The notes under the pieces are model-generated. The model ran no database searches, was not told where the DNA came from, and worked only from the letters and a program-made list of their open reading frames with translations. Positions 1-16,842 of a stretch of 64,000 nucleotides of DNA are shown piece by piece. The DNA is from Bdellovibrionales bacterium. GTDB taxonomy: Bacteria > Bdellovibrionota > Bdellovibrionia > Bdellovibrionales > UBA1609. The position numbers were made by a program, and so were the translations under genes. The DNA lies in contig CBDBBW010000007.1 of NCBI GenBank assembly GCA_965203225.1, positions 487,574 through 551,573 of the forward strand. Direction: 5' to 3'. Positions within the stretch are counted from its first letter, which is position 1, and each line of letters starts with the position of its first letter.

Positions 1-1
1 A

Positions 2-1459: not shown

Positions 1460-1574
1460 ACAAAATAAAAGAGACTACTATACAAAAAGAACAAAAACGA
1501 AATTCTGGAGCAAAAAGCCAAAACTATGAATGATTATAAAAAAAGAAAATATTTATCCTCTTTCAAAGAGAAAA

Positions 1575-3290
1575 CTATTTTTTCTTTTCTATTTTATATA
1601 AATCAAACAACTTTTTAATTGAAGGTTCCGGTGATTTGGATTTTTTCTTTACTTTCCAGTCTCTTCTTTTTTCTCCTTTTTCTATAAAACCATTTTTTTC
1701 CCATTGTTGAAATAATTTTGACAACTGCACTATCTCTGATTGACTATTAGATAAACCAAAAAGCTGTCTTGCCTCTTTGTTTGTTATATAACCTGCACGA
1801 TTCTCCCTATAAGCATAATTTTGTAGTATTTTTTTAAATTTGTTTTCCTCTGCCTTTGAAAACACCTTTGACTCCTGACCTTCTAATTGAACTTTTACCC
1901 AGCGTTTTAAAAGAATTTTTATTACTGGCTGTTTCTTGTTTTTTTCAGGGTATTCAGTGGTTAATAAAAAAGGGGAATCATTATTTGAAAGAAGTTCAAC
2001 TATAAGCCTTTTATGATACTCGTCTATATAACTAAAAATTTCTTCTAAAGTTTTATCTCTCCATAATACAAAGGCCGCTGAAATTTTATATTTATCTGTA
2101 TTACTTTCATATAATCTTCTAAACTTTTTAAGAAGTTTTAAAAAATTCTTATTTGGCTGTTCATTATATATAGTCACTGACCATATACCATAAGCATCTG
2201 AGAGTCTTTGATATTCAAAGAGAGGTTCTCTTCTTCCATTTTCAATCATATATTTAAAAATCTTGTTTTTTCCTGTTCCAAGTTCATCAGAAAATTTAGC
2301 TTTTCTTAGAATTTTCATTAAGAAGGGATTATAAGAGGAATGACTTTGAGAGAATTTTTTATTGATGAAAGCTGTAGCTTTAGCTGAACAATGGTTTGAA
2401 ACCTTAATTCTGTTTTTATATAGCTCAACCGTTATTTCTCCCTTCTGTTTTTCAAAAGCAGAGTGGGCAACAGCATTGACAAGAACTTCTCTTAAAACAG
2501 AATCAGGGTATGGTTTTTCTTCCGTAACAGATACAGAGCCGGGGATTAAACTGATTCCTTTAGTTCTTGTCCATGACTGGATATGTTGGATAAAATCTTC
2601 CTTTAACAAGGAGTATAAACCTTCCTTTTCATACTGATCTATAAGCTCGGATTCCTGATTATAATGTGCAACTCTAAAAGAAAAATCTCCAAATAAAATT
2701 CCTGAAACATTTTTATCTTTTATATTCAGTTTAGACAAAATATTATCCGCTGATAGTTTCAACCAGTCTTCATCGCCATTTTTTAAGAATTTTGCAAAAT
2801 CTAAAATCAAAGAAGAGTTTACTTTCCCTTTATAATCAAAACTTGAAAAATCAAGACCAGGACGCTTTAGTTCTTGTTCTTGTTTTTCCCCTGGAGTCAT
2901 CTCCTCTGTTCTTGTTCCCAACCTTTTGTAAAATTTTTCATTCCAAGAAACTACTGCCTTGGGATTTATAATTTCAATAAGTATAAACTTTTTGTTATTT
3001 ACAGTCTCAGCAGAAATAGATTGCACTGTAGAATTAGGCTCAAGATACTGACCGATATGATTTTCTATACCAGTTTCCTGTTTTTTCACCCAACCTGAAT
3101 CCTTACCCAATAAAAAACCTTTATCATCAATGCCAATAATTAACCATCCACCTTCTTCTTCATTTCCAATAGCAGAAATACTTTTTCCATGTTCTTGATG
3201 CCACTTGGACTTAAATTCTACATGTTTATTTTCAGTTAACTGCCCAGAAGATAACTTATCCAGTAAAACCGTTTTTGTGTAAGAACTCAT
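1575..3290 (-). CDS. AlbA_2 (Schlafen-like) DNA-binding domain + HATPase_c_4-like domain protein with Lys-rich C-terminal region
   Basis: 571-aa ORF. N-terminal ENKHVEFKSKW...GGWLIIGIDDKG fits the AlbA_2 / divergent AAA_4 signature. REVLVNAVAHSAFEK fits the HATPase_c_4 signature (RE..NA..H). This family is usually annotated as a putative transcriptional regulator or RecG-like protein. Confidence 0.65.
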   Translation of the reverse strand: MSSYTKTVLLDKLSSGQLTENKHVEFKSKWHQEHGKSISAIGNEEEGGWLIIGIDDKGFLLGKDSGWVKKQETGIENHIGQYLEPNSTVQSISAETVNNKKFILIEIINPKAVVSWNEKFYKRLGTRTEEMTPGEKQEQELKRPGLDFSSFDYKGKVNSSLILDFAKFLKNGDEDWLKLSADNILSKLNIKDKNVSGILFGDFSFRVAHYNQESELIDQYEKEGLYSLLKEDFIQHIQSWTRTKGISLIPGSVSVTEEKPYPDSVLREVLVNAVAHSAFEKQKGEITVELYKNRIKVSNHCSAKATAFINKKFSQSHSSYNPFLMKILRKAKFSDELGTGKNKIFKYMIENGRREPLFEYQRLSDAYGIWSVTIYNEQPNKNFLKLLKKFRRLYESNTDKYKISAAFVLWRDKTLEEIFSYIDEYHKRLIVELLSNNDSPFLLTTEYPEKNKKQPVIKILLKRWVKVQLEGQESKVFSKAEENKFKKILQNYAYRENRAGYITNKEARQLFGLSNSQSEIVQLSKLFQQWEKNGFIEKGEKRRDWKVKKKSKSPEPSIKKLFDLYKIEKKK

Positions 3291-3435
3291 TTTTTAAACC
3301 TTAATATTATTTATAGAGCTTTTTTTAAGATAAACAAGTCTTGTCTATGATCTGGGAAATCAGAGGGCATCCAAATGACAAGCCTAGCCTTCTTATGGCT
3401 ATTTTACAATTTTGTCCAAAAAATTAGTAAAAAAA

Positions 3436-3948
3436 CAGAGACGACACGCAGACGACATGACTGGCACAAACTATTGATTTTCGCGGATTTTTTCAAGTAG
3501 TTGAAAACAGAGTGCGCCGAATTTGTTCAGACGACACGCAGACGACACGCAGACGACATCAAGGCACAAACTATTGATTTTCCCGGATTTTTTCAAGCAA
3601 CTGAAAGCAGAGTGCGCCGGATTTGTTCAGACGACACGCAGACGACATGCAGACGACATGACTGTCACAAACTATTGATTTTCCCGGATTTTTTCAATTA
3701 ACTGAAAGCAGAGTGCGCCGGATTTGTTTAGACGACACGCAGACGACATGACTGTCACAAACTATTGATTTTCCCGGATTTTTTCAATTAACTGAAAGCA
3801 GAGTGCGCCGGATTTGTTTAGACGACACGCAGACGACACGCAGACGACATGACTGTCACAAACTATTGATTTTCCCGGATTTTTTCAAGCGACTGAAAGC
3901 AGAGTCAGCCGGATTTGTTCAGACGACACGCAGACGACATGACTGGCA
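3436..3948. repeat. Composite tandem array: 5 units of 90-101 bp, each with 2-3 nested 11-bp subrepeats (gacgacacgca)
   Basis: The core cacaaactattgattttcccggattttttcaa recurs at 3465, 3565, 3666, 3756 and 3857. Period varies with the number of cagacgaca(c/t)g subunits. No unique spacers. Confidence 0.9.
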
Positions 3949-4394
3949 TAATAAATATCGGTAAAATGGCGGGGTAAACCTCGCCCCTCTCATTGATTTT
4001 AGCTGGAATTTAACGGGATACTCCGGTTAGTGGATATAAAGGGAAAACTATTTATAAAATAAGAAAATATGTAAAAATTTATAATAAAAAATACATCAAA
4101 GCAAGAAATTCAAAGCCACTAAAAGACTTCATAAATCGTGCTAAAATATTTAATGAAGTTTTTTATAGAAATAAAAAAGGCAGTAAAAAAGAACTATATG
4201 GAATTTTTATGAATTATGTTGAGCGTGCAAAGAAAATATTGAATAAGGATGATGAAAGAAAATATAATTTATCAGACAAACAGTTTCTTAAACATAAAAA
4301 GCGGATTCATAAAAAAATTGATGAAGCAATAATAAAACTTTCTGCTTTTAACACTTGATAGTTCCATAAAAAATTCATCTTCTTTAAAAATTAA

Positions 4395-4640
4395 AAAGAT
4401 CTTCATAAGATAGTGAGAAGATTTTGTGAGATGGCTGTAGAGGAAGAAGTGATTAACAAAAATCCTGTAAAGGATATTAAAATCAAATTCCCCTCACCTG
4501 AACAAAAGATTTTAACTTCTGAGGAAGCGGATAAGCTCTTAAAAGAAGCTCATGTTTGCAACCACAGATTTTATCTTCAATGGGCGGTGGCCTTATTTAC
4601 AGGGATGAGGAACGGAGAGATATATATACAACAACCCTAT
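4395..4640 (+). pseudogene. tyrosine recombinase (phage-type integrase) internal fragment
   Basis: RRFCEMAVEEEVINKNPVKDIK...LTSEEADKLL...ALFTGMRNGEI is the core-binding to first catalytic Arg (TGxRxxE) region. There is no N-terminal arm domain upstream (stop at 4392) and the homology ends near 4630. Confidence 0.6.
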
Positions 4641-4806
4641 AAAAGGGGAAAACCATATCAGGCTTTCCTATAAGGCCATGTCCTATTCTATATCTATACC
4701 CTTTTTTCCAAATTAGCTTTCTAACGATAATTTCTGGTTTTGTGTTTTTATTCTTTATTTGAGACATGCAATGATGCCTCTGTTTTCTTGTAAGATTGTC
4801 TGTCAT
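4640..4806 (-). pseudogene. vsr: very-short-patch repair endonuclease (Vsr), N-terminal fragment
   Basis: MTDNLTRKQRHHCMSQIKNKNTKPEIIVRKLIWKKGYRYRIGHGLIGKPDMVF matches the Vsr N-terminus (S..M..I....T.PE...R..L...G.RYR......GKPD.VF). The rest of the enzyme is missing; the ORF tail is antisense to the integrase fragment. Confidence 0.6.
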
Positions 4807-5117
4807 TTTATCACCTATATAAAGAATAATAAATTTTTAAAAAAATAGAAAGATAAAAAAACCGATCTATCTTCTTCTTAAGAAAATAGAAAGATCGTGT
4901 AATTTTTACTATTTGAATTAGAGCAAAAGAGGATGACAAAGAATGGTTTAAAATAATGAATGATATAAGTTAGAGAAAGATACAAAAAATTGATGACTGG
5001 AGGTAAAAGTTCGGAGTAAAGATTGAGTATAAATTTTTTTTAAATATTACTTTTGCACGAAAAAAGCTTTTCAAAGAAAACTCTCTATCGAAATTTTTGA
5101 CGGAATACTCTGGTTAA

Positions 5118-5230
5118 TAGGGTTATCAGCAGTTATCAAAGGGATAAAAAAGAGGTGGTTTTATAGTGTTTTTTGGCTTATTTTAGTGTTTTGAAAATTA
5201 TCTCTTCTGACCCGTCTACCTCGCCATTCG
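5118..5230. repeat. Divergent partial copy (C) of the ~190-bp repeat family also found at 10767-10958 and 12329-12526
   Basis: agcagttatcaaagggataaaaaagaggtggttttat...cccgtctacctcgccattcg aligns by eye with agcggtcatcaacaggataaaaagcgttggttttat...cccgtcccatcctgccattgc. A ~40-bp piece at 4008-4050 is also related to 5095-5130. Confidence 0.6.
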
Positions 5231-5649
5231 TTTCTTTAAGCCTTATAAAGGCTAGGGTTTTTCAGAGAAAAATGTTTAACTTGCCGGCTTTATCTTCTGT
5301 GAATAAAATGTCTTTCTGAGATTTCAGCTTCCATCAATTTGCTGTAGAAGCGATTTCACTAGATTAAGTCTTTTTTCCCTAGTTTTTTAGCTTCATTTAT
5401 TACAAGTTCTTGGAGCTTATGAACTTCTTTAATATATGAGCTTAGCTTCTTTCTGATTTCTCTAATATATTCTGTCATTTTCTTGGAAAGCCTTTTTATA
5501 CATTCATGACGCTGATCTAATAATTCCTTTTGTTTGTTCTTAATTTCATTTCTTAAATCATCTTCTTGTTTTTTTCTTTCTTCTTCTGTTTTTTTTATTT
5601 CATTAAATCTGATTTTGATTCTTAGTTTCTATTATATCAGAAAGGAGTG

Positions 5650-5972
5650 TAAGATTCAAAATCTTTAATAAGAAGCTTGAATTGAAAGTTTACCAGTTGG
5701 AAGTTGCATTGAACATCAGAACCATTTGTTGTATTGCTATATGCCAGTAAGATTTTTTATTTTTTCTGTTATAGGATTATTGGTTTTCATTAAATAACTA
5801 CCAAATTTTACAGGGCAAGATGAACTTGTATCCCAAATCATATATCCTATTTCAATAATATCTGAATAAGAAAGGTCAATTCCTGTTGTTTCTAAATCTA
5901 TTCCAAGTAGACATATTATTGTAGTTTCTTTTCTTATGTAGCTGATTAATTTAATCTGAAGACTGTTTTCAT
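5650..5972 (-). pseudogene. DnaQ-like DEDD 3'-5' exonuclease remnant directly downstream of the RT
   Basis: Manual translation gives ATG at 5972 (MKTVF), then a frameshift into ...ISYIRKETTIICLLGIDLETTGIDLSYSDIIEIGYMIWD...ITEKIKNLTGI, with a stop at 5738. This is the ExoI motif D-x-E-T-T-G and the LTGI box. Further degraded frame continues below. Confidence 0.45.
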
Positions 5973-5989
5973 AGTATTAATGTAAAAAA

Positions 5990-7642
5990 TTAATAGTATC
6001 CGTATCTTTGAGGAAAAGTAGCAAACTCCTCTCGTTTAATAGGTTTGCCTTTTATTTTGTTCAATTCTTCTTCGTTAATTATAGCTTTATCTTTTATTAT
6101 TTTTTTAAAATTATCTTTTAACCAATTGGATTCCCAGATAGGTATATTACCTGTATTGGCTACAATATTACAAATAGGTTCATCAAAATCAAATGAAATA
6201 CTTTCGTTAAAACCAATAACAACCCTTTGTAGCCAAATATCTAAATATCCTGTATTGGGAATTTTTTGGAATTTTTTTCTAATTTTCTCGATAATATTTT
6301 TTTGTTCTTTTTTTTGATCAATATGTTTGATCAACTGGCTTATTATGGGTGCTGATATATTGTAAGTTATAGGGTTATGATAAGTTATATCTACAATAAT
6401 ACTAATAAGCTGATATACATTTTTGAACTTTGTTTTGCTTTTCTTTATTTTCTTTATTATATCATAGACTTGCTGTAAAGCAGTTTTTAGACTGCCGGAA
6501 TTGGGAAATTCCTTCGAAAAAGCATAAATAAGAATTAGATCTTTTTGAACAGAACCCATAATTTGTTTTTGAACAGAATCCATGCTTTGTTTTTGAACAG
6601 AACCCATAATTTGTTTTTGAACAGAACCCATGCTTTGTTTTTGTTGCATCCAATATAATTTATCAGGTTTGATTGAGACTTTTATAACCTGATCAGTAGG
6701 TTTTGTTTTATTTGGGTTTAATGACATTCCAAAACCAATAAGTATTTCAGATATAATTTTAACAATTTTTTCGCCATTTTTTAAACTGTTTGTAAATATT
6801 CTGTAATCATCTCTATATCTGATTATCTTATAATTCTTTATATCAGGGTCCTTTTTTATCTTTTTTGTTAGATCATAATCAATATAACCAAGAACCATTT
6901 CTGCAATAAAATCCATAAGGACAGAGCCTTGCGGTATTCCATTGGTTTGTCCATACGACATATCTCTTAAATATTTGTCTATGACATTGCCAATTAATTT
7001 TTTATTGTTACGATTTTCTTTTTTTTTTGCTTCCTCTCTACCATGTATAGCCCAAGATACTGAGTGGGTATAAATAGATCCATAACAGTTGGAAATATCT
7101 ATATGTGTAAGGTATTCATAATCGAGAGACATTTTAATTGATTGTTGTTCAACTTTTTCCCACCAAGACAAAATTTGTTCAGCTTTATTTTTTTTCTTCG
7201 GTTTAGATGAAATAACTGGGATACTCATACATTTAATATGAAGTTTTTTTCTCAACTTTTTAAATCTCTTACAAATGGTTTCCCAATGATCTTTTTTTGT
7301 AATACTATGAACAAGCGACATATATAATACAGGATGGATGAGCTGTATAGGTCTCCATGCATACTTTCCATCTTTATTATGAAGTATGATGTGATTTATC
7401 TTTTCTTCATCCCTGGGAGGAGATTTCTGAAAAATATATTTACCATTTGTAAACAATTCTTTATCTTTTAATAAAGAACTAACGCTTTTTAAAATTGAAT
7501 CAAATGAAATATAAGGAGGTAAATCAAAGTTAAAATAACTTTCATTTTTCATAAAAAATTCACAAGCTTCTAAATATGACAAATCAAGAATACTTTTTCT
7601 TTTATCACTTCTATGTGATTTTTTAATTTTAGATTTAGACAT
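5990..7642 (-). CDS. Reverse transcriptase, Abi/UG (defence-associated) type with C-terminal helical extension
   Basis: Motif A: HIDISNCYGSIYTHSVSWAI. Motif B: NGIPQGSVLMDFIAEMVL. Motif C: IIRYRDDYRIF (YxDD). Motif D/E: FGMSLNPNKTK. About 200 aa of helical tail follow. The track start at 7711 is a TTG overlapping the upstream pseudogene stop, so ATG 7642 (MSKSKIKK) is more likely. Confidence 0.85.
   Translation of the reverse strand: MSKSKIKKSHRSDKRKSILDLSYLEACEFFMKNESYFNFDLPPYISFDSILKSVSSLLKDKELFTNGKYIFQKSPPRDEEKINHIILHNKDGKYAWRPIQLIHPVLYMSLVHSITKKDHWETICKRFKKLRKKLHIKCMSIPVISSKPKKKNKAEQILSWWEKVEQQSIKMSLDYEYLTHIDISNCYGSIYTHSVSWAIHGREEAKKKENRNNKKLIGNVIDKYLRDMSYGQTNGIPQGSVLMDFIAEMVLGYIDYDLTKKIKKDPDIKNYKIIRYRDDYRIFTNSLKNGEKIVKIISEILIGFGMSLNPNKTKPTDQVIKVSIKPDKLYWMQQKQSMGSVQKQIMGSVQKQSMDSVQKQIMGSVQKDLILIYAFSKEFPNSGSLKTALQQVYDIIKKIKKSKTKFKNVYQLISIIVDITYHNPITYNISAPIISQLIKHIDQKKEQKNIIEKIRKKFQKIPNTGYLDIWLQRVVIGFNESISFDFDEPICNIVANTGNIPIWESNWLKDNFKKIIKDKAIINEEELNKIKGKPIKREEFATFPQRYGYY
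6542..6645 (-). repeat. In-frame 24-bp tandem repeat (4.3 copies) inside the RT gene
   Basis: tttttgaacagaa(c/t)ccat(aa/gc)tttg runs head-to-tail from 6542 and encodes (Q)KQ(S/I)M(G/D)SVQ x4 between the RT catalytic core and the helical tail. Confidence 0.95.
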
Positions 7643-7700
7643 TACTTCAAACCCGGTTTTTGTTTTAGATGAATAAATATATTGTATCAATATTATTGCA

Positions 7701-8056
7701 TTACTTTGCAATAATCAAAACTTCTTTTGAAGATCCATTGCTTAAAACATACTTATAATCAAGTTTTTTTATTTCAATAGATGTTTTGTATTTTTTTAAT
7801 ATATAAACTAATTCATTTATTTTAGGTATTCCGTTATATCTATAAGAAACAACCAAGATTGAATCTTGAAATTTTTTAAATAGTTTTTCAAATGCTTCTT
7901 GTATTTCACCCTTATTGCACCATTCATTTTTTTCATTTTTTATTTTTAGATTTTTTATCAGTTAAATTAGACCATTCATTATAAAAAGCAATACCTTCAA
8001 GAAAATGGTAAAAATCAAAATAATTTACACCAATACCTTTTTCTGAAATATAGAGA
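7701..8056 (-). pseudogene. D12-class (Dam-like) N6-adenine DNA methyltransferase, C-terminal remnant with frameshift
   Basis: Manual translation: ...YISEKGIGVNYFDFYHFLEGIAFYNEW.. (frameshift) ..FEKLFKKFQDSILVVSYRYNGIP...IEIKKLDYKYVLSNGSSKEVLIIAK, then stop. This resembles the Dam C-terminus (vviSNsd...v.v.r.isSNg...v.ELL). The stop overlaps the TTG at the RT ORF start. Confidence 0.4.
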
Positions 8057-8124
8057 AAAAGGCCAAGAAATGATAAAAATCTACTCCTTCAAAAAAACCT
8101 TAAATTAGCTCTTGGCGTTAAAAA

Positions 8125-8155
8125 TTGACTAACAAAGGTCTGGAAAGCTTATAAT
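8125..8155 (+). promoter_or_regulatory. Candidate sigma70 promoter for the DprA-like/PRTase pair
   Basis: TTGACT (8125-8130), a 19-nt spacer, then TATAAT (8150-8155), 134 nt upstream of ATG 8289. The spacer is longer than optimal. Confidence 0.4.
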
Positions 8156-8288
8156 CCATTCCTCTTGCTGAATCCTATTTATTTTTTTGATAGGTCAGTT
8201 ATAAAAAATAGTAAAGATCAGGGCTTTTTGTACCCTATTTACTAGTTGAACCATTTGTTGTTTATTACTAAAATAACATAGTATTCTT

Positions 8289-9209
8289 ATGACACAAATA
8301 TCAGAAGATTTTATCCAAGATGTTATTTCTCCCCAACAAGAAATGTCTGCGTATGAAACTTTGTGGGCTATGGAAGATATTAAAGAGAAAACTCTAAAGG
8401 AAATGTTTGAAAAATACACTCCTTTTGAAACATTAAAGAGAATATCTAATCAATACGAACAACAGCAGGAATTATTTGTATCAAAGCAATCCACTTTAGA
8501 AATACAAGAAAAAGTAAATAAATTTCTGGAAAATTCATTAGGCAAAAAGCATCTTCCTTTTTCAATAGTGGTAAATAGAGGCATCCAATATCCAGAAAGT
8601 TTAAAGAGCGATTATCCTATAGGTTTATTTTATTATAAAGGGGATTTAGGTATATTAGAAACAAAATGTATTTCAATAGTAGGTGCGAGAAAAGCTTCTC
8701 CGCTAGGAATACAAAAAGCTAAAGAATTAGCCAAAGAATTAAGCACTAAGGAATTTACTATTGTTTCTGGACTTGCTCAAGGTATAGATACAGCGGCTCA
8801 TCAATCAGCAATTGAAAATAACAGCCTCACAATTGGAGTTATAGGGACGCCTATTAACAAATACTATCCACAGGAAAATAAACATTTACAGGACGAAATT
8901 GCAAAGAACTTTCTTCTTATAAGCCAAGTGCCGTTTTATAAATATGAAAATGAACCATTCAAGCACCGTTCCTATCATTTCCCTCGACGAAATATGACAA
9001 TGGCTTCAATTTCAAAAGCTACTGTTATTGTGGAAGCTTCAGATACAAGCGGTTCTCTTGTTCAAGCTAGAGAGTGCCTTAAACAAAATAAAAAATTGTT
9101 TATAATGGATTCCTGTTTTAATAATCCAAAAATCAGTTGGCCTGGAACTTATGAAAAAAAAGGAGCTATCAAGGTAAAAAACTATTCAGATATTTTGGAT
9201 AATATTTAA
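8289..9209 (+). CDS. DprA/Smf-family (SLOG-fold) protein
   Basis: CISIVGARKASPLGIQKAKELAKELSTKEFTIVSGLAQGIDTAAHQSAI...GVIGTPINKYYPQEN...FPRRNMTMASISKATVIVEASDTSGSLVQAREC follows the DprA Rossmann core (VGsR..S..G, SG.A.GID..aH, YP..n, F..RNr, vEa...SGsl.tA). Confidence 0.8.
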   Translation: MTQISEDFIQDVISPQQEMSAYETLWAMEDIKEKTLKEMFEKYTPFETLKRISNQYEQQQELFVSKQSTLEIQEKVNKFLENSLGKKHLPFSIVVNRGIQYPESLKSDYPIGLFYYKGDLGILETKCISIVGARKASPLGIQKAKELAKELSTKEFTIVSGLAQGIDTAAHQSAIENNSLTIGVIGTPINKYYPQENKHLQDEIAKNFLLISQVPFYKYENEPFKHRSYHFPRRNMTMASISKATVIVEASDTSGSLVQARECLKQNKKLFIMDSCFNNPKISWPGTYEKKGAIKVKNYSDILDNI

Positions 9210-9784
9210 TGGAAACTTGGTATAAGCTTGAAGAGTCTTTCCATTTCCATTTCCATATAAAAAATGAAGATAAATGTGTCTATGCTAGGGAATATAAATC
9301 TCGTTTAGGTTGGAAAATCAAAACAAATAGCCTTGTTCTAAATTTTAAAAAATCTCCTCTTACAAAAGACACTCCTGAATGGCAATATCGCAAAAAATCC
9401 ATTCAAATCTTTTCAAAAGAAATTGAAAAATTATTCAAGCCAAATTCAAATGCAACTATAACAGCAATTCCAAGTTCTAAACCAAAAATACACTCTGAAT
9501 ATGATAACCGATTTGAAGACTTATTTAAGGTGCTTTTAAAAACTCGTCCTCGTTTGAATATTGAGTGGCCTGTTGAAATTCGAAACCTTATACTCCCTGC
9601 TCATCAAGGGGGTTCTAGAAATCCAAAAGATATAAAGAAAAACTACAGATGGAAAGGGTTTAAAAACACTCCTAAGGAAATAGGTATTGTAGATGATGTT
9701 TTAACAACAGGAGCACATTTTCGTGCTATGTCTGATTTTCTTAAAGAAAATAGATATAAAGGACAAATAGTTGGAATTTTTTAG
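9209..9784 (+). CDS. ComF-like phosphoribosyltransferase-domain protein
   Basis: PRPP-binding loop IGIVDDVLTTGAHF near the C-terminus, a ComF-like layout (AIPSSKP..., ...R.....KNYRWKGF before the loop), and no N-terminal Cys Zn-finger. The start ATG shares one base with the upstream TAA (TAATG). Confidence 0.7.
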   Translation: METWYKLEESFHFHFHIKNEDKCVYAREYKSRLGWKIKTNSLVLNFKKSPLTKDTPEWQYRKKSIQIFSKEIEKLFKPNSNATITAIPSSKPKIHSEYDNRFEDLFKVLLKTRPRLNIEWPVEIRNLILPAHQGGSRNPKDIKKNYRWKGFKNTPKEIGIVDDVLTTGAHFRAMSDFLKENRYKGQIVGIF

Positions 9785-9954
9785 TCAAGAGCTGTGTGTT
9801 TAAAATAGTTGCTATTTTTAGATAAATTTTGACTAAATTGCACTTTACAAATATGAAAATTGACCTGCTAATAATATCAGTGGCTGGTGTCAATCGTTCC
9901 TTTCAGTGATTGTCCCTTTTTTGGGTTAGCCGCTCCTTTTTTTATTTCCCTTAA

Positions 9955-10681
9955 TTATGAATATCTCTTTATTGAAAAATCAGTATTTTCTTTTATATTC
10001 TTCCGTATAGTATGTAATTTTTTATCATGTCATTTCTCTGGCTGATAATTGTTTTCATGACGATTAGCCATATAAATAAGCATATCTGCAATCTGTAAAA
10101 ATCGGCTGTGATGAGAATGTGTAAAATATATTGTATCTTTTAACCGGCCAAGAGCCTGTCCTTAATACATTGGTGTTGAACCAGACTGTTTAAATTGTGA
10201 AAAATCTAAAACTGACCTTGTAATTTCATTTTCCTCATAGCCACCAGAAACAACTCCAATATCATCAACTTCATCAAGATAAAAGCAAAACTATTTTAAA
10301 ATAAGCACTAAGCCAAGACAATATTCAGGTTCGGGATATTTGTATTTTTTTTGATATTTTTTCACATCCACACAAACAATAGGAATAGGAATAGGAATAG
10401 GAATAGGAATTTTATTGTGAACTAAAACATTTCCAATATTTTCAAAAAGCTTAATTTATCCTGTAATTTTCTTTTACGATATACTCCTTTTCCATTGAAA
10501 ATAAATTGACCATGAAGTTCAGATATTATTGTCTAATCTGTTTGTTGAAAAAAAGTTATATTGTATCTACATTAAAATATTTTCAAGAGAAGTGATATTC
10601 TCTTCTGGCAATAAAACCCCTCCGATAAAAAAGAAAGGATTATCTTCTGAAGAATTTTTTATCAAAATATATAAGTCTCAT
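9955..10681 (-). pseudogene. DUF3800-family gene, multiply disrupted
   Basis: Manual translation: ATG 10681 MRLIYFD, then a frameshift into ..NSSEDNPFFFIGGVLLPEENITSLENIL, then stops, then ...YFTHSHHSRFLQIADMLIYMANRH (the DUF3800 C-terminal motif F.dS..s..iQiADl). Several in-frame stops and frameshifts. Confidence 0.5.
10381..10410. repeat. Hexanucleotide microsatellite (aggaat)x5
   Basis: Perfect 5 copies. It lies inside the DUF3800 pseudogene and reads IPIPIPIPIP on the minus strand. Confidence 0.95.
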
Positions 10682-10766
10682 CACTACTCTCTTGTTAGAA
10701 AGTTTTATTTCTTCTTTCTGTATCTCTTTCTTATTATAAAAACTAAACTTCAAAAGAAGATACTTT

Positions 10767-10958
10767 ATCTTATAAAATAATTGGCTTAGTGATATTCATT
10801 ACAAATTTTTTTGTGTGATTTTTGTATGATTGGGTAGGCTATAGAGGAGGACATAAGCGGTCATCAACAGGATAAAAAGCGTTGGTTTTATTGGGCTTTG
10901 AGGTTATTTTAAAGCTTTAAAACCACTTCCTACTTTCCCGTCCCATCCTGCCATTGCC
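10767..10958. repeat. ~190-bp repeat family, copy A (downstream of patatin, upstream of the DUF3800 pseudogene in minus sense)
   Basis: About 85% identical by eye to 12329-12526, running from tatcttataaaataattggc to cccgtcc(c)atcc(t/c)gc. In minus sense its gene-proximal end carries TTGTAA-17nt-ATTATTTTATAAG (promoter-like). Confidence 0.85.
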
Positions 10959-11150
10959 TTCTAATCTTTATAAAAATTGAAACTTTTTGGAGTGAAATAT
11001 ATTTTTGTTTGATTTTTTTGAAGCTGGGATTAAAATAACTTCACTTAGCTGTATCAAATATGTTGAGGTATTTGAATACTGAACATATAAAAAACCCAGG
11101 ATTTTCTTAAAAAATTCAGTATCCAGCTTAGTTGCCTTTTTTTCTGAATT

Positions 11151-12218
11151 TTAATAGAATGGTTTATAGGGTGTAGTAGGTTCTATTAAAAAGTTATCTT
11201 TAACTTTACTACTAAAATCTGAAAATGCTTTCTCAGCGGCTATTGGTAAAATTGTTACACTCTTTTTCCAATCGTCTAAATCTATACCTTTTTTTGGCAT
11301 CATGCTTTCTGGTACATCAATTCTGACAATATTATTTCTTCCTATCAATAAACCGGCTTGTCCTATAGCATTTTGTGATTGAAGATGCATAACTCCTTTC
11401 ATGATATTTCTCCAATGCCATAGTCCTCCTGTCATCATTTTATTTTTTACAGTATAAGGTCTTTCACCACAACCTATACTCAAAATTCTAATATTCTCCC
11501 TTTGAACATTAAAAGAAGATAGAGCTTCAACCACACCAATCATACACGGATTATTTGCCCATACTCCACCATCAACAAATATATAACCTTTATCTTTAAA
11601 TGATTTAAGAAAAGCAGGTGCAGCAGATGTGGAAAGCGCCACTTTTGTCATCAGTTCTTCACCATCTTTTTTAAAGTCAAGGTGATGAGGAGTTTTAAAC
11701 ACATATACTTCACTATGTACTCCTTCAAAAGACGGGATACATAAACGTACTTTACTTTCTTTTAACTTATTATCTTTAAACACTTTTTGTAATATAGTTT
11801 TCAGTTTATTTCTATTGTAAGGAACATACGCATACTGCTGTATTTTTTTTAACCATCTATATTTATAGGGAAAAATGTCATTGCCTTTTTCAATATATAG
11901 TTTTGAAAACTCGGAGGCTTTTATACCAGCTCCAAGCCCAAGTGCAATAATACCTCCTGTAGAAGTTCCACAAACCAAATCAAAATAATCAGTAATACTA
12001 TTTCCTCTTAAATAAGAGGATTCTATTTTTTCAAGAAAGCAAGCTGGAAAAATACCTTTTATACCGCCGCCATCTATAGAGAGAATTCGAAATTCTTTGT
12101 TATTAGGCCAAATATTGGGAACTCTTCTTTTGTTTAAAATTCCCTTAGAGCGTCTTTCTGGTTTATATTTTGATTCGCTTTCTTTGTGTTGATTTCGATT
12201 TTTGCTTTTTGTTTGGAT
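11151..12218 (-). CDS. Patatin-like phospholipase (start codon uncertain)
   Basis: Track ORF starts at an internal Met (11978) in the middle of the nucleophile elbow GTSTGG. The same frame stays open upstream to about 12270 and encodes FRILSIDGGGIKGIFP (oxyanion G-G-G-x-K/R-G). Asp dyad motif: FVDGGVWANNP. No ATG/GTG/TTG follows the strong SD GGGAGGAGGGG (12231-12241); the nearest in-frame candidate is ATC at 12218. Confidence 0.75.
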   Translation of the reverse strand: MQTKSKNRNQHKESESKYKPERRSKGILNKRRVPNIWPNNKEFRILSIDGGGIKGIFPACFLEKIESSYLRGNSITDYFDLVCGTSTGGIIALGLGAGIKASEFSKLYIEKGNDIFPYKYRWLKKIQQYAYVPYNRNKLKTILQKVFKDNKLKESKVRLCIPSFEGVHSEVYVFKTPHHLDFKKDGEELMTKVALSTSAAPAFLKSFKDKGYIFVDGGVWANNPCMIGVVEALSSFNVQRENIRILSIGCGERPYTVKNKMMTGGLWHWRNIMKGVMHLQSQNAIGQAGLLIGRNNIVRIDVPESMMPKKGIDLDDWKKSVTILPIAAEKAFSDFSSKVKDNFLIEPTTPYKPFY

Positions 12219-12328
12219 GTTCCCCTCCTCCCTTCCAGTTAACAGTATAAAGCCAGTTCTCAGAAATTGTCAGGATAAATATTGATATATTATTTTATAA
12301 AAAAGAATTTCTTGAAAGAAAATAATTA

Positions 12329-12526
12329 TATCTTATAAAATAATTGGCAGAGTGATACTCATCACAAAATTTTTTTTGCGTGGTTTTTACATGATTGGTT
12401 AGGCTATAGAGGAATATAAGCGGTCATCAACAGGATGAAAAGCGTTGATTTTATTGAGTTTTGAAGTTATTTCAAGGCTTGGCTTTCAAACCACTTCTTA
12501 TTTTCCCGTCCATCCCGCACTTGCAT
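12329..12526. repeat. ~190-bp repeat family, copy B (upstream of patatin in minus sense)
   Basis: See copy A. The promoter-like TTGTGA-17nt-ATTATTTTATAAG is conserved. Confidence 0.85.
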
Positions 12527-12971
12527 TTTAATGTAGAGTGTTCATACGGTAATGATATAATTTATCTTTGAATAATATATATATTTATTTTTGGAGAAAA
12601 AATAGTTGAATAAAAAATATACAGACAAAAAAAAGAATTTTTCCGAAAGACTTTATCAATCAGTTTTTATTTGGAGATTCTGATCAGATTTTAAAATAAA
12701 TCCCTGATGAAAGCTTGGATTTAGCTATTACATGATTTCCTTAATAATATTAAAAATTCAACTTCTCTTAGATATAAAGTTTTTTATGGAAGGTCGCTGA
12801 TGAAAAGCCGGTAAGTTATATCTCTGAGTGGTATGCTGGGGCAATTGCTTCTTTTTTAGCCATGATATACTTCCCTTTAGTTTGTTGTTGGCTTGCTTGC
12901 TCTTTTGGATAAAAGAAAGAAAAACGACGGGAACATTTTGCAAGACAAAAATTGGGAAGACACCAAAGCGT

Positions 12972-13043
12972 CAGTGAATGGAGAAACTGGCTCGTCCATG
13001 AACAGTGAATGGAGAAACTGGCTCGTCCATGAACAGTGAACAG
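12972..13043. repeat. 31-bp tandem repeat, 2.3 copies
   Basis: cagtgaatggagaaactggctcgtccatgaa occurs at 12972 and 13003, with a partial third copy. It lies just downstream of the oxidoreductase gene. Confidence 0.85.
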
Positions 13044-13089
13044 TAAACAGACTTTACTTTTCACATAGCAGGTCATAAACAATCGTTAC

Positions 13090-14583
13090 TTACTTTCCTC
13101 TTCTCCAGGAGTGAAATTTGTTTAATAGCTTTAGTGATCTTTCCGGTATATGATGCTTTTTCCATTGTCCGGCTACATATTTATTTCCTTCATTTAGTGT
13201 CGGATAAATATGAATACTATTTAGAATCGCGGAAAGATTTAGATTATGAGTCATAGCTAATATAAATTCGGAAATCAGTTCACTGGCTCGGCTATGGACA
13301 ATACTTACTCCTAAAATTTTATCTTTTCCTGGTGGAGTTAAAACTTCAATATAACCCTGCTCTTCACTGTCTGTAATAGCACGATCCAGTTCTTTAAAAT
13401 TATAAACAGTGGATTCATAGGGAATATTTTTTTCTTTCGCTCGCATCTTGGAAAGCCCCGCGCTAGCCACCTCCGGGTCTGTAAAAAGCGCCCAAGGTAT
13501 TATATTATAATTTGCTTTAAAAAACTTTTTTTGAATCCATGGAGGCAAAAAACAATTATAAGGGTGAAACAAAGCGTTTATACAGGCATAGTAAGCTTGG
13601 TAGCCTGCTATGTGAGTAAATTGAAAAGGCCCTGTTACATCTCCACAGACAAAAATATTAGGATAGTTAGTGGCCATAAATAGATTTGCCTGAATAGTTT
13701 TTTGTTTTGTAACTTTCACATTGAGTTTTTCCAGGCCAAAATCTTTAATCCGCGCTTTTCGTCCGAAAGCAATTAGAACTTCATCAAATGGAATTTCTTT
13801 TTGAAGACCTTGTTGGTCTTTCACTGTTAAAATTTTTTCTCCTGAATTATTGATAGAAAATTTCTCTAGTTGATGAGAGGTTAAAATATTCATTTTTTCT
13901 TTATGAAATTGGCTGGTTAAAATGTCAGATACCTCTTTATCCAATAAGGAAACAATTCGAGGAGCTTTATCTAGTAAAGTGACTTGAGATCCTAATCTTT
14001 GAAAACACTGAGCTAGCTCACAGCCAATTGGTCCGGCGCCTAAAACCAACAATCTTTCAGGCTTTGTTTTAAGATTCCAAATATTATCAGATGTTAGATA
14101 AGAAATTTTATTTAGACCTGGAATAGGAAAAACCAGAGGTTGAGCGCCTGTAGCGACAACAATAGATCTTGTGTTGAAAGTTTTATCCCCTATGCGAACT
14201 GTATAAGGTGAAAGAATCTCTGCTGTGTCAGAAAAACAATGGACTCCTAATTTTTTATATCTCTCCACGGAATCGTGAGGTTCAATTTTTTTTATTTTGT
14301 TTTGAACCCTATCCATAATGTCCTGAAAAGTATAATCTACAGATAAGGACCTAAAACCCAACTCTTTAGCTTTACTTTGAAGGTATAAAATTTTAGCGGA
14401 GCGAATAAGAGATTTACTGGGGACACAACCGGTATTTAAACAATCCCCTCCCATTTTATGTTTTTCTACAAGAGCCACTTTCGCTTTAAGAGCACTGGCC
14501 AGATAAGAGCAAACCAGACCGGCGCTTCCAGCGCCAATAACAATTAAATTAAAATCATATTTTGCCGGCTTTTTAAATTTCAT
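13090..14583 (-). CDS. Class I pyridine nucleotide-disulfide oxidoreductase (dihydrolipoyl dehydrogenase / mercuric-reductase-like flavoprotein)
   Basis: FAD fold IVIGAGSAGLV, redox-active disulfide GGDCLNTGCVPSK, second dinucleotide fold LVLGAGPIGCE, and a C-terminal dimerisation domain with HIYPTLNE. Confidence 0.8.
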   Translation of the reverse strand: MKFKKPAKYDFNLIVIGAGSAGLVCSYLASALKAKVALVEKHKMGGDCLNTGCVPSKSLIRSAKILYLQSKAKELGFRSLSVDYTFQDIMDRVQNKIKKIEPHDSVERYKKLGVHCFSDTAEILSPYTVRIGDKTFNTRSIVVATGAQPLVFPIPGLNKISYLTSDNIWNLKTKPERLLVLGAGPIGCELAQCFQRLGSQVTLLDKAPRIVSLLDKEVSDILTSQFHKEKMNILTSHQLEKFSINNSGEKILTVKDQQGLQKEIPFDEVLIAFGRKARIKDFGLEKLNVKVTKQKTIQANLFMATNYPNIFVCGDVTGPFQFTHIAGYQAYYACINALFHPYNCFLPPWIQKKFFKANYNIIPWALFTDPEVASAGLSKMRAKEKNIPYESTVYNFKELDRAITDSEEQGYIEVLTPPGKDKILGVSIVHSRASELISEFILAMTHNLNLSAILNSIHIYPTLNEGNKYVAGQWKKHHIPERSLKLLNKFHSWRRGK

Positions 14584-14600
14584 TTTCTATTACCTGCTTT

Positions 14601-15296
14601 CTATTTGAGTTTGTTTTTTTTTAGAACGAAAAGTTTAAAAAACAGTTTCATAATCCAGGGTAGTCCTGCTAAAATGCAAAAAGACAAAATAATCGGAACA
14701 GATAAAATATCAGACATGGATTGAACAGAAGATAACTGCTTTCCGGCGTTGACATAAACAAAAGTTCCTGGAAGCATCCCTAAACAACTAACTATAATGA
14801 ATTGTTTTGTGGAGATAGTGGTTAATCCCATTAGTAAATTGATAAGAAAAAAAGGAAATATAGGGATAAGCCTCAATGAAAGCAGATACAAAAATCCATC
14901 TTTTTTGAATCCTTTATTGATAATTTTTAAACGGGAGTGAAATTTTTTTTGAACAAAATCTTTTAATAAAAATCTTGAAATCAAAAATGCTAAAGTAGCT
15001 CCTGTTGTACTACCTAAAGAGACCAAAACGCTCCCTATAAAAAAGTCAAATAGAAAGCCCGCAGAGAGTGTTAATACCGCCGCCCCAGGGATGCTCAAGG
15101 TAGTGCAAAGCACATAAACACAGAAAAAAATTAATATAAATAAAACCGGATGATTTTTATAAAGAGAATCCAATTCCTGTTTTTTATTGATAAAAAAATC
15201 AGGATTGAAATACCGGTTTAAATCAAGATAAAAAAGTAATATCCAGATGAGTAAAATGAAACATACAAAAAAGATTTTTGTTTTTAAGGTATTCAA
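14601..15296 (-). CDS. TVP38/TMEM64 (DedA-superfamily) membrane protein
   Basis: Polytopic 231-aa ORF with LSLRLIPIFPFFLINLLMGLT (R.iP..P...iN...G.t signature). Adjacency to the flavoprotein reductase is a common pairing or fusion. Confidence 0.7.
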   Translation of the reverse strand: MNTLKTKIFFVCFILLIWILLFYLDLNRYFNPDFFINKKQELDSLYKNHPVLFILIFFCVYVLCTTLSIPGAAVLTLSAGFLFDFFIGSVLVSLGSTTGATLAFLISRFLLKDFVQKKFHSRLKIINKGFKKDGFLYLLSLRLIPIFPFFLINLLMGLTTISTKQFIIVSCLGMLPGTFVYVNAGKQLSSVQSMSDILSVPIILSFCILAGLPWIMKLFFKLFVLKKNKLK

Positions 15297-15533
15297 TATA
15301 TATATCTGGTAAGTGCATTGGCCAACTGCCTATATTCTACCGAATTTTTCATCCTCAGTCCAGTTCACAAGAAAAAACTATCCAGGAAGTGCAGAAAGCT
15401 TATTCAAACTCTTACCAATTTCAGAAGAAATGGAGGGATGTGATGGAATGTTTAGAGTTGAATTTTATGGGAATTTTCTTATCTTACCGATTGCAGAGAA
15501 AACTGGAGGGATGTGATGGGCTGAATATTTCAC

Positions 15534-16028
15534 ATTGTATCGGTCCCGAAAAGTGGATAGAGTATTAGTTTTTGCATAAGGTGGAAAACTAGGTATTCCA
15601 TTGTATCGGTCTCGAAAAGTGGATAGAGTATTGGAGAGATGAGGCACTATGAAACCAGATGTTCCATTGTATCGATCTCGAAAAGTGGATAGAGTATTAG
15701 TTTTTGCATAAGGTGGAAAACTAGGTATTCCATTGTATCGGTCTCGAAAAGTGGATAGAGTATTGGAGAGATGAGGCACTATGAAACCAGATGTTTCATT
15801 GTATCGGTCTCGAAAAGTGGATAGAGTATTGGAGAGATGAGGCACTATGAAACCAGATGTTTCATTGTATCAGTCTCGAAAAGTGGATAGAGTATTAGCG
15901 CACAAATTGGGACAACTATAATACACTAAATTGGATCAGTCTCAAAAAGTGGATAGAGTATTAGTGCACAAATTGGGACAACTATAATACACTAAATTGG
16001 ATCAGTCTCGAAAAATGGACAGAGTATT
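15534..16028. repeat. CRISPR-like interspaced array: eight 33-nt repeats separated by 33-nt spacers (exact 66-bp register); no cas genes in window
   Basis: The repeat attgtatcggtctcgaaaagtggatagagtatt starts at 15534, 15600, 15666, 15732, 15798, 15864, 15930 and 15996; the last two are degenerate. The spacers fall into three mutually unrelated classes in the order A,B,A,B,B,C,C. Confidence 0.8.
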
Positions 16029-16131
16029 GTGTATCATTTTGAAAATATTTCTAATTAGGATTTATTTTGATAGGTTATTGAAAAAATCACCACAAAAAAA
16101 TCTAATTAATTCTAATATTTAGGAAAGTAAA

Positions 16132-16207
16132 TGGTGGAGCTGAGGGGGCTCGAACCCCTGACCTTAGCGCTGCCAGCGCTACGCTCTCCCAGCTGAGCTA
16201 CAGCCCC
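16132..16207 (-). tRNA. tRNA-Ala (anticodon GGC), CCA encoded
   Basis: The reverse complement GGGGCTGTAGCTCAGCTGGGAGAGCGTAGCGCTGGCAGCGCTAAGGTCAGGGGTTCGAGCCCCCTCAGCTCCACCA folds as a cloverleaf by hand. It has the G3:U70 Ala identity pair and the anticodon loop CTGGCAG. Confidence 0.9.
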
Positions 16208-16386
16208 AAAAAGAAAATCTATTACCAACTACATACAATATGTCAAACGCACTAGTAAAAGCAATTAGCATAACCTTTCTTTTCGGTCGATTCGAATGAC
16301 ATTAATATGTCAAATGCATATCAATCACATTCGTAAAAACAGATAGAGATAGCAACCACTGCCAAACACTATAAGCTTCACTTGTG

Positions 16387-16806: not shown

Positions 16807-16842
16807 AAAGTCACCCTTTCATAGCAAAATGATTTGTCATCT

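What the first reader, a model, noticed from the sequence alone, without database searches (positions are those of the whole stretch)
8125..9784. Intact, translationally coupled DprA/Smf-like + ComF-like PRTase pair inside a decayed defence island, divergent from an Abi-type RT
Seen in sequence: ORF 8289-9209 has a complete DprA/Smf Rossmann (SLOG-superfamily) core behind about 100 aa that I cannot assign. Its TAA shares a base with the ATG of ORF 9209-9784 (TAATG). That second ORF is a 191-aa ComF-like phosphoribosyltransferase (PRPP loop VDDVLTTGAHF) lacking the N-terminal Zn-finger of canonical ComFC. A near-consensus promoter precedes the pair. Nearly every recognisable neighbour within about 4 kb upstream and 1 kb downstream is a defence or mobile gene, and most are pseudogenes (vsr, integrase, Dam-like MTase, DnaQ-like exo, DUF3800). 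This pair and the divergently oriented RT are intact, which suggests selection on them. Established knowledge: DprA and ComFC both handle incoming ssDNA during natural transformation. SLOG and PRTase domains also recur in nucleotide-centred conflict systems, and PRTases occur as retron effectors. Inference: this looks like a two-gene accessory module. It could be a defence system, an ssDNA-protection or anti-defence function of a mobile element, or a partner for the neighbouring RT. Housekeeping competence genes seem less likely. I know of no named defence system with this composition, but my recall is not a search.
Basis: partly seen in the sequence, partly recalled or inferred. Interest (0 to 1): 0.7.

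Follow-up and report, generated by a model that had tools for sequence, protein, structure and literature searches.

The report
Short-form ShosTA defence pair, toxin truncated
The two overlapping genes are a member of the already named ShosTA anti-phage toxin-antitoxin family (DprA-like antitoxin plus phosphoribosyltransferase toxin), and in this genome the toxin gene has a fresh premature stop codon, so this is an ordinary and probably decaying defence module, not a new system.

Summary
Both ORFs exist as described: 8289-9209 and 9209-9784, joined by TAATG. PADLOC models identify them as ShosA (E 5.7e-78) and ShosT (E 3.8e-27). This is the named DprA-like antitoxin / PRTase toxin defence system, so a named system with this composition does exist. 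The pair belongs to a large PRTase-only "short form" (~200 aa; 869 50%-identity clusters at E<=1e-30). The characterised E. coli ShosT (424 aa) also has an N-terminal pyrophosphatase domain, which this form lacks. In 77 of 80 genomes from many phyla the ShosA-like gene lies directly upstream and overlaps the PRTase gene. The pair also occurs in P2-like phages, on plasmids and in defence/mobile islands. The "intact" claim fails for the toxin. The TAG at 9782-9784 replaces a conserved Trp codon: TGG in an 88%-identical syntenic contig, which encodes 199 aa. It removes the end of the last beta-strand. ShosA looks intact: dN/dS is 0.11 and the three ssDNA-binding arginines are kept. The AbiP2-type RT is a separate system, near ShosTA in only 1 of 80 loci. 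Verdict: a known kind and a new member, probably recently disabled. Low interest.

The parts
8125..8155 (+). Promoter-like TTGACT-N19-TATAAT upstream of shosA
   Evidence: Unique match in the window; expected 0.12, and 12 of 100 shuffles had at least one. The 19-nt spacer is suboptimal, so the 16-18 nt scan did not list it. Function is inferred only.
8289..9209 (+). shosA-like gene: DprA-like antitoxin, 306 aa, apparently intact
   Evidence: PADLOC ShosA PDLC03961, E 5.7e-78, residues 25-304 on model positions 15-291 of 303. Pfam DNA_processg_A at residues 94-296. AF2 model pLDDT 91.4. Foldseek matches: S. pneumoniae DprA TM 0.66-0.74, E. coli ShosA 8zva TM 0.63. dN/dS 0.107 against L083. R134, R234 and R261 align with the ssDNA-binding arginines of E. 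coli ShosA (PMC12961424).
8289..8570 (+).
   Evidence: The AF2 model shows helices at 6-10, 15-27, 33-40, 45-58 and 65-84. Foldseek aligns nearly the full length to DprA 3uqz and ShosA 8zva, which have a SAM domain plus a Rossmann fold (PMC11961720).
9207..9211 (+). TAATG stop/start overlap between shosA and shosT
   Evidence: Read directly from the sequence. The same 1-nt overlap is called in close relatives L083 and L084. Reading frames overlap in 77 of 80 loci.
9209..9784 (+). shosT-like gene: short-form PRTase toxin, truncated to 191 aa where relatives have 199-202 aa
   Evidence: PADLOC ShosT PDLC03962, E 3.8e-27. Homologues are about 200 aa. AF2 model of the 75%-identical P0004 has pLDDT 94.7. 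Foldseek matches: H. pylori ComF TMq 0.54, E. coli ShosT 8zvd/8zvb/8zvc TMq 0.48-0.49.
9689..9721 (+). PRPP-binding loop VDDVLTTGAHF (D162 and D163 invariant)
   Evidence: Invariant columns in alignments A2 and A3. The equivalent D331/D332 in E. coli ShosT are required for toxicity (PMC11961720, PMC12961424). The correspondence between the two is inferred from the shared fold.
9782..9784 (+). Premature TAG replacing the conserved Trp codon (W192*)
   Evidence: L083 reads TTT TGG TCA AGA GCT GTG where the window reads TTT TAG TCA AGA GCT GTG. Homologues read GIFWSRAV. TAG ends 5 of 30 long ORFs in the window, so it is an ordinary stop codon here.
9785..9808 (+). Leftover in-frame 3' end of shosT (SRAVCLK plus the next stop codon, TAG)
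   Evidence: SRAV matches the family consensus after the Trp.
5990..7711 (-). AbiP2-type defence reverse transcriptase. It is a neighbour in the island, not part of the pair.
   Evidence: PADLOC AbiP2, E 3.9e-192. An RT lies near ShosTA in only 1 of 80 loci. It is 56% identical to the L007 RT and has an extra in-frame repeat.
9961..10681 (-). DUF3800 pseudogene directly downstream
   Evidence: tblastn with the intact 237-aa L083 copy gives 75% identity with at least 5 in-frame stops, frameshifts and an (AATAGG)5.5 insertion.

Best explanation
The pair is a short-form ShosTA module, a type IV toxin-antitoxin and abortive-infection defence system.

By analogy with the characterised E. coli system, ShosT is a PRPP-binding phosphoribosyltransferase. 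Its activity disturbs nucleotide metabolism and causes DNA replication damage. ShosA is a dimeric DprA-like protein that binds ssDNA and interacts with RecA. It counteracts the damage without binding the toxin. Phage infection removes or titrates ShosA, through host transcription shut-off or phage ssDNA/replication intermediates, and this frees the toxin.

The antitoxin gene comes first and overlaps the toxin gene, so the two are probably co-translated. This copy lacks the N-terminal pyrophosphatase domain of the E. coli toxin, as does its whole family of ~200-aa proteins.

In this genome the toxin has a recent TGG-to-TAG nonsense mutation. It removes the last 8 residues: half of the final core beta-strand plus a conserved basic residue. 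The module is therefore most likely disabled or weakened and is decaying along with the island around it. ShosA is still intact.

Shown here: family identity, conserved operon structure, the nonsense mutation and the island decay. Inferred: the biochemical mechanism, which is transferred from E. coli, and the loss of toxin activity.
For: - Family identity: PADLOC ShosA E 5.7e-78 and ShosT E 3.8e-27. The same two models hit the pairs in Burkholderia phage Mana and on an E. coli plasmid.
- Operon: 77 of 80 loci have the ShosA-like gene directly upstream with overlapping frames.
- Family size: 869 representatives at E<=1e-30. The top 150 are nearly all 196-233 aa and extend to profile position 196 or beyond, out of 202.
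- ShosT-like fold: ComF and E. coli ShosT are among the top four PDB matches.
- ShosA fold: DprA and ShosA are the best matches. The arginines R134, R234 and R261 are kept.
- Nonsense mutation: TAG against TGG in the 88%-identical syntenic contig L083, which encodes a 199-aa ShosT. The tail G-x-F-W-[AS]-[RK] is present in about 97 of 101 homologues. The last strand of the model spans residues 188-198, and the window protein ends at the equivalent of residue 193.
- Island decay: DUF3800, Vsr and DnaQ-like fragments.
- Mechanism: PMC11961720, PMC12961424, PMC9122126 and bioRxiv 10.1101/2022.08.27.505566.
Against: - No experiment I found tests the PRTase-only short form. Every tested system I could trace is the 424-aa E. 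coli type.
- A sequence profile of the short-form ShosT does not find E. coli ShosT in the PDB. Structural similarity is only moderate, TM about 0.49 with 10-12% identity.
- By sequence the ShosA here is closer to S. pneumoniae DprA (E 2.9e-43) than to E. coli ShosA (E 3e-27).
- All invariant catalytic-region residues of ShosT are retained. Derived substitutions are symmetric between the window and L083, 15 against 14, so long-term relaxed selection in this lineage is not shown.
- The truncated protein could still be active.
- The TAG could be a sequencing error in the source assembly. I cannot check this.
Confidence: 0.62

Rival explanations
1. The module is a fully working ShosTA defence system. 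The last 8 residues of ShosT are dispensable, or the TAG is a sequencing error or is read through, so the pair still protects against phages by abortive infection.
For: All invariant residues, including D162/D163 and the PPi-loop PSSK, are present. Six residues of the last strand remain. ShosA is under purifying selection, dN/dS 0.107. Derived changes are not skewed towards the window lineage. The overlap and the promoter-like site are intact.
Against: About 97 of 101 homologues keep the tail with a basic residue two positions after the Trp. All 150 best family representatives extend beyond the truncation point. By analogy with E. coli ShosT beta-9, the strand that is cut lies inside the core sheet (PMC12961424; inference). 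TAG is a normal stop codon in this window. Neighbouring genes are decaying.
Confidence: 0.25
2. After the toxin was lost, ShosA is kept for its own benefit. It could act as an orphan antitoxin protecting against other ShosT copies, or as a DprA-like recombination mediator for the host or the island.
For: ShosA is intact with low dN/dS and keeps its ssDNA-binding arginines. Related genomes carry several ShosA and ShosT copies on one contig, for example P0141 and P0217 with P0022 and P0046 on a 2,177,344-bp contig. E. coli ShosA promotes recombination and binds RecA (PMC11961720, PMC12961424).
Against: The dN/dS value averages over both lineages and mostly covers the time before the nonsense mutation. 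Nothing shows the mutation is old enough for selection on ShosA alone to be visible. No second ShosT or ShosA is present in the 64-kb window.
Confidence: 0.1
3. The genes are the organism's housekeeping competence genes dprA and comFC, handling incoming ssDNA during natural transformation.
For: ORF1 matches DNA_processg_A and is structurally closest to S. pneumoniae DprA. The best structural match of the ORF2 family is H. pylori ComF.
Against: ORF1 scores below both DprA equivalog cut-offs: 157.6 against 191.15 and 142.5 against 495. ORF2 scores 15.8 against 233.55 for ComF and lacks the Zn-finger. The specific ShosA and ShosT models fit much better. The pair is on phages and plasmids and in variable islands across unrelated phyla. 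One member is truncated.
Confidence: 0.02
4. The pair is an accessory or effector module of the divergently transcribed reverse transcriptase, in the way PRTases serve as retron effectors.
For: The RT and the pair are adjacent and divergent here. An AbiP2-like RT also lies next to ShosTA in L007. PRTases are known retron effectors (PMC9122126).
Against: Only 1 of 80 ShosTA loci has such an RT within 10 kb, and there it is downstream and convergent. AbiP2 is a stand-alone defence RT class in PADLOC. ShosTA works without an RT in E. coli (PMC11961720).
Confidence: 0.02

Closest known systems
ShosTA of E. coli APEC O1 / KTE181 (also 'DprA + PRTase' of the P2 prophage hotspot; structures 8ZVA-8ZVD, 9VZO)
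   Same: A two-gene operon with the DprA-like antitoxin first and the PRTase toxin second. ShosA has a SAM-like domain plus a DprA Rossmann fold and keeps the three ssDNA-binding arginines. ShosT has a PRPP loop with an acidic pair. Both are found in defence and mobile hotspots.
   Different: The toxin here is about 200 aa, PRTase only, without the N-terminal pyrophosphatase (HAD-like) domain. ShosT similarity is detectable only by structure (TM about 0.49) and by a separate PADLOC model (PDLC03962). ShosA lacks the disordered C-terminal tail linked to instability in E. coli. This copy of the toxin is truncated by a nonsense mutation.
Short-form DprA-like + PRTase pairs matched by PADLOC models PDLC03961/PDLC03962 (for example Burkholderia phage Mana gp51/gp52; E. 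coli M11 plasmid B WP_001367158/WP_000175354)
   Same: The same two HMMs hit, the gene order and overlap are the same, and the protein sizes are the same (about 280-306 aa and about 200-225 aa).
   Different: Those copies have the complete C-terminal strand. The window copy ends at the conserved Trp position.
Canonical DprA and ComFC of natural transformation
   Same: ORF1 has the DprA fold and ssDNA-binding residues. The ORF2 family's best structural match is H. pylori ComF.
   Different: Both score below the curated family cut-offs. There is no ComF Zn-finger. They form a mobile, overlapping operon in defence islands and are not competence genes in a conserved genomic position.
PsyrTA / RqlHI (DprA-like antitoxin with a RecQ-like helicase toxin)
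   Same: The antitoxin is DprA-like. The PsyrA model hits ORF1 at E 1.9e-25.
   Different: The toxin partner here is a PRTase, not a helicase, and the ShosA model fits far better.

Membership tests
ShosTA (PADLOC / Millman 2022 / Rousset 2022) | Antitoxin matches a ShosA model over its full length | tested here: met
   PDLC03961, E 5.7e-78, residues 25-304 on model positions 15-291 of 303. The second ShosA model, PDLC02997, also hits at E 4.8e-20.
ShosTA (PADLOC / Millman 2022 / Rousset 2022) | Toxin matches a ShosT model and has a PRTase fold with a PRPP loop | tested here: met
   PDLC03962, E 3.8e-27. VDDVLTTGAHF with invariant D162/D163. The AF2 model matches ComF and ShosT structures. The match stops at model position 207 of 237 because of the truncation.
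ShosTA (PADLOC / Millman 2022 / Rousset 2022) | The two genes are adjacent on the same strand, A then T | tested here: met
   1-nt overlap, TAATG. The same arrangement holds in 77 of 80 loci. [quoted passage not shown]
ShosTA, characterised E. coli subtype | ShosT has an N-terminal pyrophosphatase-like domain (residues 1-164 of 424) | tested here: not met
   The window ShosT is 191 aa and its homologues are about 200 aa, a single domain. In E. coli this domain contributes only marginally to toxicity (PMC11961720).
ShosTA, characterised E. coli subtype | ShosA has a SAM domain plus a DprA Rossmann fold and ssDNA-binding arginines (R139, R234, R261) | tested here: met
   The AF2 model has five N-terminal helices plus a Rossmann fold. 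Foldseek gives TM 0.63 to 8zva over 323 columns. R134, R234 and R261 align with these arginines.
ShosTA | ShosT is toxic, ShosA neutralises it, and the pair protects against phage | not testable with these tools
   This needs expression and plaque assays. I found no experimental report for the short form.
ShosTA | Complete toxin open reading frame | tested here: not met
   TAG at 9782-9784 replaces the conserved Trp, and 8 residues are lost compared with L083.
DprA (NCBIfam TIGR00732 / PRK10736 equivalogs) | Score at or above the curated equivalog cut-off | tested here: not met
   157.6 bits against 191.15, and 142.5 bits against 495.
ComF/ComFC (TIGR00201) | Score at or above the family cut-off, with an N-terminal Zn-finger | tested here: not met
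   15.8 bits against 233.55. The N-terminus has no Cys-rich motif.
Retron or RT-associated PRTase effector | Conserved linkage of the PRTase gene to an RT | tested here: not met
   An RT lies within 10 kb in 1 of 80 loci.

The most novel reading that the evidence does not exclude
The PRTase-only short form, which has no pyrophosphatase domain and is only distantly related to E. coli ShosT, might use a different acceptor substrate or trigger than the characterised system. In this lineage ShosA may be on its way to domestication as a stand-alone DprA-like recombination mediator or anti-addiction factor after loss of the toxin.
Probability: 0.12. Interest if true: 0.45.

Novelty: new member of a known kind. 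Interest (0 to 1): 0.18.

Why it matters
The finding has little general importance, because it resolves into a named defence system. It has two modest uses. First, it shows that the abundant PRTase-only ShosTA class is untested: at least 869 clusters at 50% identity, spread across many phyla, phages and plasmids, while every study I could trace used the two-domain E. coli toxin. Second, the window and contig L083 form a natural pair of alleles, W192* against full length. That pair could be used to test whether the last beta-strand of ShosT is needed for toxicity.

Tried and rejected
- Exact-protein look-ups of the window's ShosA and ShosT gave no contig, and cluster look-ups gave no names. The source organism stays unidentified. 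The closest ShosT relatives are 'Bdellovibrionales bacterium' MAGs.
- Sequence searches of the PDB with ShosT alone and with a family profile found only weak PRPP-loop matches and one spurious designed-repeat hit. A structure comparison was needed instead.
- I expected the P2-hotspot 'DprA+PRTase' of Rousset et al. to be the short form. The supplement shows it is the long-form E. coli APEC O1 system.
- Kimelman 2012 (PMC3317161) is not held, so I could not check the original ShosTA.
- I tested whether the high dN/dS of ShosT (0.486) reflects relaxed selection in the window lineage. Derived changes are symmetric, 15 against 14, so I dropped that idea.
- Pfam scans of six-frame translations and of single fragments did not confirm the integrase or Dam-like methyltransferase pseudogenes.
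- Rfam found only a tRNA in 1-17000.
Full report
**Observation.** ORF1 is 8289-9209 (306 aa) and ORF2 is 9209-9784 (191 aa), both on the + strand. The TAA of ORF1 shares its last base with the ATG of ORF2. ORF1 matches Pfam DNA_processg_A at residues 94-296 (E 7.5e-55) and weakly matches a SLOG family. ORF2 has no Pfam hit but carries VDDVLTTGAHF. TTGACT-N19-TATAAT lies at 8125-8155 and is the only such match in the window. Twelve of 100 shuffles produced at least one. The spacer is 19 nt, so the standard 16-18 nt scan did not list it.

**Identity.** PADLOC models assign ORF1 to ShosA (PDLC03961, E 5.7e-78, nearly full length) and ORF2 to ShosT (PDLC03962, E 3.8e-27). ShosTA is a named two-gene system made of a DprA-like antitoxin and a PRTase toxin. 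It was shown to defend E. coli against T7 and lambda (PMC9122126) and has been characterised structurally and biochemically (PMC11961720, PMC12961424). So a named system with this composition does exist. ORF1 falls below both NCBI DprA equivalog cut-offs, and ORF2 falls far below the ComF cut-off.

**Short form against the characterised form.** The E. coli APEC O1 and KTE181 ShosT is 424 aa. It has an N-terminal pyrophosphatase-like domain (residues 1-164) and a PRTase domain. The Rousset construct pFR105 is that same APEC O1 system.
- The window protein and its homologues are about 200 aa.
- A profile search of 1.84 billion representatives found 869 at E<=1e-30 and 1,656 at E<=1e-10. The top 150 are nearly all 196-233 aa.
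- A sequence profile of this family does not find E. coli ShosT in the PDB.
- An AlphaFold2 model of the 75%-identical homologue P0004 has pLDDT 94.7. Its best matches are H. pylori ComF (TMq 0.54) and E. coli ShosT 8zvd/8zvb/8zvc (TMq 0.48-0.49), ahead of most ordinary purine and pyrimidine PRTases.

The pair is therefore a PRTase-only class of ShosTA that PADLOC already covers. I found no experiment on this class.

**Conserved operon and context.** A scan of one genome per species returned 80 loci that encode a relative of ORF2.
- In 77 of them a ShosA-like gene lies directly upstream on the same strand with overlapping reading frames.
- The hosts include Bdellovibrionales, Acidobacteriota, Alpha-, Beta- and Gammaproteobacteria, Bacteroidota, Chloroflexota, Planctomycetota and a Moraniibacteriota MAG.
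- The pair is also in P2-like phages. In Burkholderia phage Mana it is a 282-aa 'Smf-like' gene overlapping a 225-aa PRTase gene. It is also on plasmids such as E. coli M11 plasmid B. These copies hit the same two PADLOC models.
- In close relatives the neighbours are an integrase, a transposase and a KAP NTPase (L084). L085 has AbiEii and AbiEi genes, AAA_15/AAA_21 ATPases and DUF4145. L086 has an integrase fragment and RhuM. L087 has a Schlafen/AlbA_2 gene.

This pattern fits a mobile defence module, not core competence genes.

**ShosA.** The AF2 model (pLDDT 91.4) has five N-terminal helices followed by the Rossmann fold. It aligns over nearly its full length with S. pneumoniae DprA (TM 0.66-0.74), R. 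palustris DprA and E. coli ShosA 8zva (TM 0.63). R134, R234 and R261 align with the ssDNA-binding arginines R139, R234 and R261 of E. coli ShosA. By sequence this ShosA is closer to S. pneumoniae DprA than to E. coli ShosA.

**The toxin is not intact.**
- Homologues read ...GIFWSRAVYP.., while the window reads GIF-TAG-SRAVCLK-TAG.
- Logan contig L083 is syntenic and 88% identical in DNA. It encodes a 93%-identical ShosA, a 199-aa ShosT with the same 1-nt overlap, and an intact DUF3800 gene.
- At the critical codon L083 has TGG and the window has TAG. The next four codons are identical.
- The tail G-x-F-[WLIVM]-[AS]-[RK] is present in about 97 of 101 homologues. All 150 best family representatives extend past the truncation point.
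- In the model the last strand spans residues 188-198, and the window protein ends at the equivalent of residue 193. By analogy with beta-9 of E. coli ShosT, which lies inside the core sheet (PMC12961424), this strand is probably internal. That placement is an inference.
- TAG ends 5 of 30 long ORFs in the window, so it is a normal stop codon here.

**Selection.** Between the window and L083, ShosA has dN/dS 0.107 and ShosT has 0.486. Polarising the ShosT differences with eight outgroups gives 15 window-derived and 14 L083-derived changes. The faster evolution is therefore a property of ShosT in this clade, and the stop codon is probably recent. L083 itself has His at the otherwise invariant N45.

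**Surroundings.**
- The RT (5990-7711, -) is an intact AbiP2-type defence RT with E 3.9e-192. Compared with the L007 RT it has a 24-residue in-frame insertion, which falls within a 24-bp x 4.2 tandem repeat.
- An AbiP2-like RT lies near ShosTA in only 1 of 80 loci, and there it is downstream and convergent. I treat it as an independent neighbour.
- The Vsr and DnaQ-like fragments and the DUF3800 pseudogene are confirmed. The integrase and Dam-like methyltransferase are not.
- A CBASS-type patatin effector reads full length in frame but has no ATG, GTG or TTG ahead of its GGG motif.
- No second DprA-like or ComF-like ORF is in the window. The rest of the genome could not be examined.

**Mechanism (inferred from E. 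coli).** ShosT binds PRPP and transfers or consumes phosphoribosyl groups, which disturbs nucleotide pools and DNA replication. ShosA binds ssDNA and RecA and counteracts the damage without touching the toxin. Infection lowers or titrates ShosA and so releases the toxin (PMC11961720, PMC12961424, bioRxiv 10.1101/2022.08.27.505566). In this window the toxin is most likely disabled or weakened, which would leave an orphan antitoxin in a decaying island.

**Verdict.** This is a known kind of system and a new member of it, carrying a truncated toxin. Interest is low.

Noticed in passing
window 15534-16029: Eight copies of a 34-nt repeat (ATTGTATCGGTCTCGAAAAGTGGATAGAGTATT[GA]) at an exact 66-bp spacing, next to tRNA-Ala (16132-16207, -). 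The periodicity looks like a CRISPR array, but the repeats are degenerate (88-100% identical) and some spacers recur with a 132-bp period. No cas genes were looked for.
   Followed up: partly
window 3439-3948: A tandem array with a period of about 101 bp, about 5 copies, 88% matches. It lies between the Schlafen-like gene and the integrase-like fragment. Its nature is unknown.
   Followed up: no
window 6542-6643 (inside the RT ORF 5990-7711, -): An in-frame 24-bp x 4.2 tandem repeat in the AbiP2-type RT, just after the RT domain (peptide GSVQKQxM repeated). The 56%-identical RT of L007 lacks 24 residues here.
   Followed up: partly
window 11151-12130 (-), and about 12184-12273 (-): A CBASS-type patatin phospholipase (CapV-like). 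It reads full length in frame (PADLOC effector model positions 4-329 of 331, E 2.8e-107) but has no ATG, GTG or TTG before the GGGIKG motif. A weak E2-like remnant (E about 3e-4) lies just upstream. No cyclase was detected, so this looks like a decayed CBASS.
   Followed up: partly
window 1575-3290 (-); L087 3441-4892: An intact 571-aa Schlafen AlbA_2 + HATPase_c_4 protein lies in the island. A protein with the same domains sits about 2 kb from the ShosTA pair in relative L087.
   Followed up: no
window 10378-10410: An (AATAGG)5.5 microsatellite inside the DUF3800 pseudogene. It adds a PIPIPI stretch that the intact L083 copy lacks.
   Followed up: partly
L083 1196-1795: The full-length ShosT of the closest relative has His at N45, a position invariant in 28 aligned family members. 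That copy may also be compromised.
   Followed up: no
L087 7023-7959: In this relative the ShosA gene is split into two ORFs (161 and 162 aa) upstream of a 224-aa ShosT. This could be a real frameshift or an error in a contig whose name suggests 3x coverage.
   Followed up: no
homologue tables: Several contigs of about 2 Mb in related MAGs carry two ShosA and/or two ShosT homologues each. Examples are the contigs of 2,177,344 bp, 2,140,557 bp and 882,048 bp. The short-form ShosTA appears to be multi-copy in this clade.
   Followed up: no
window 1-277: Sel1-repeat coding sequence (Pfam Sel1, E 1.1e-19) with a 108-bp tandem period at the left edge of the window.
   Followed up: no
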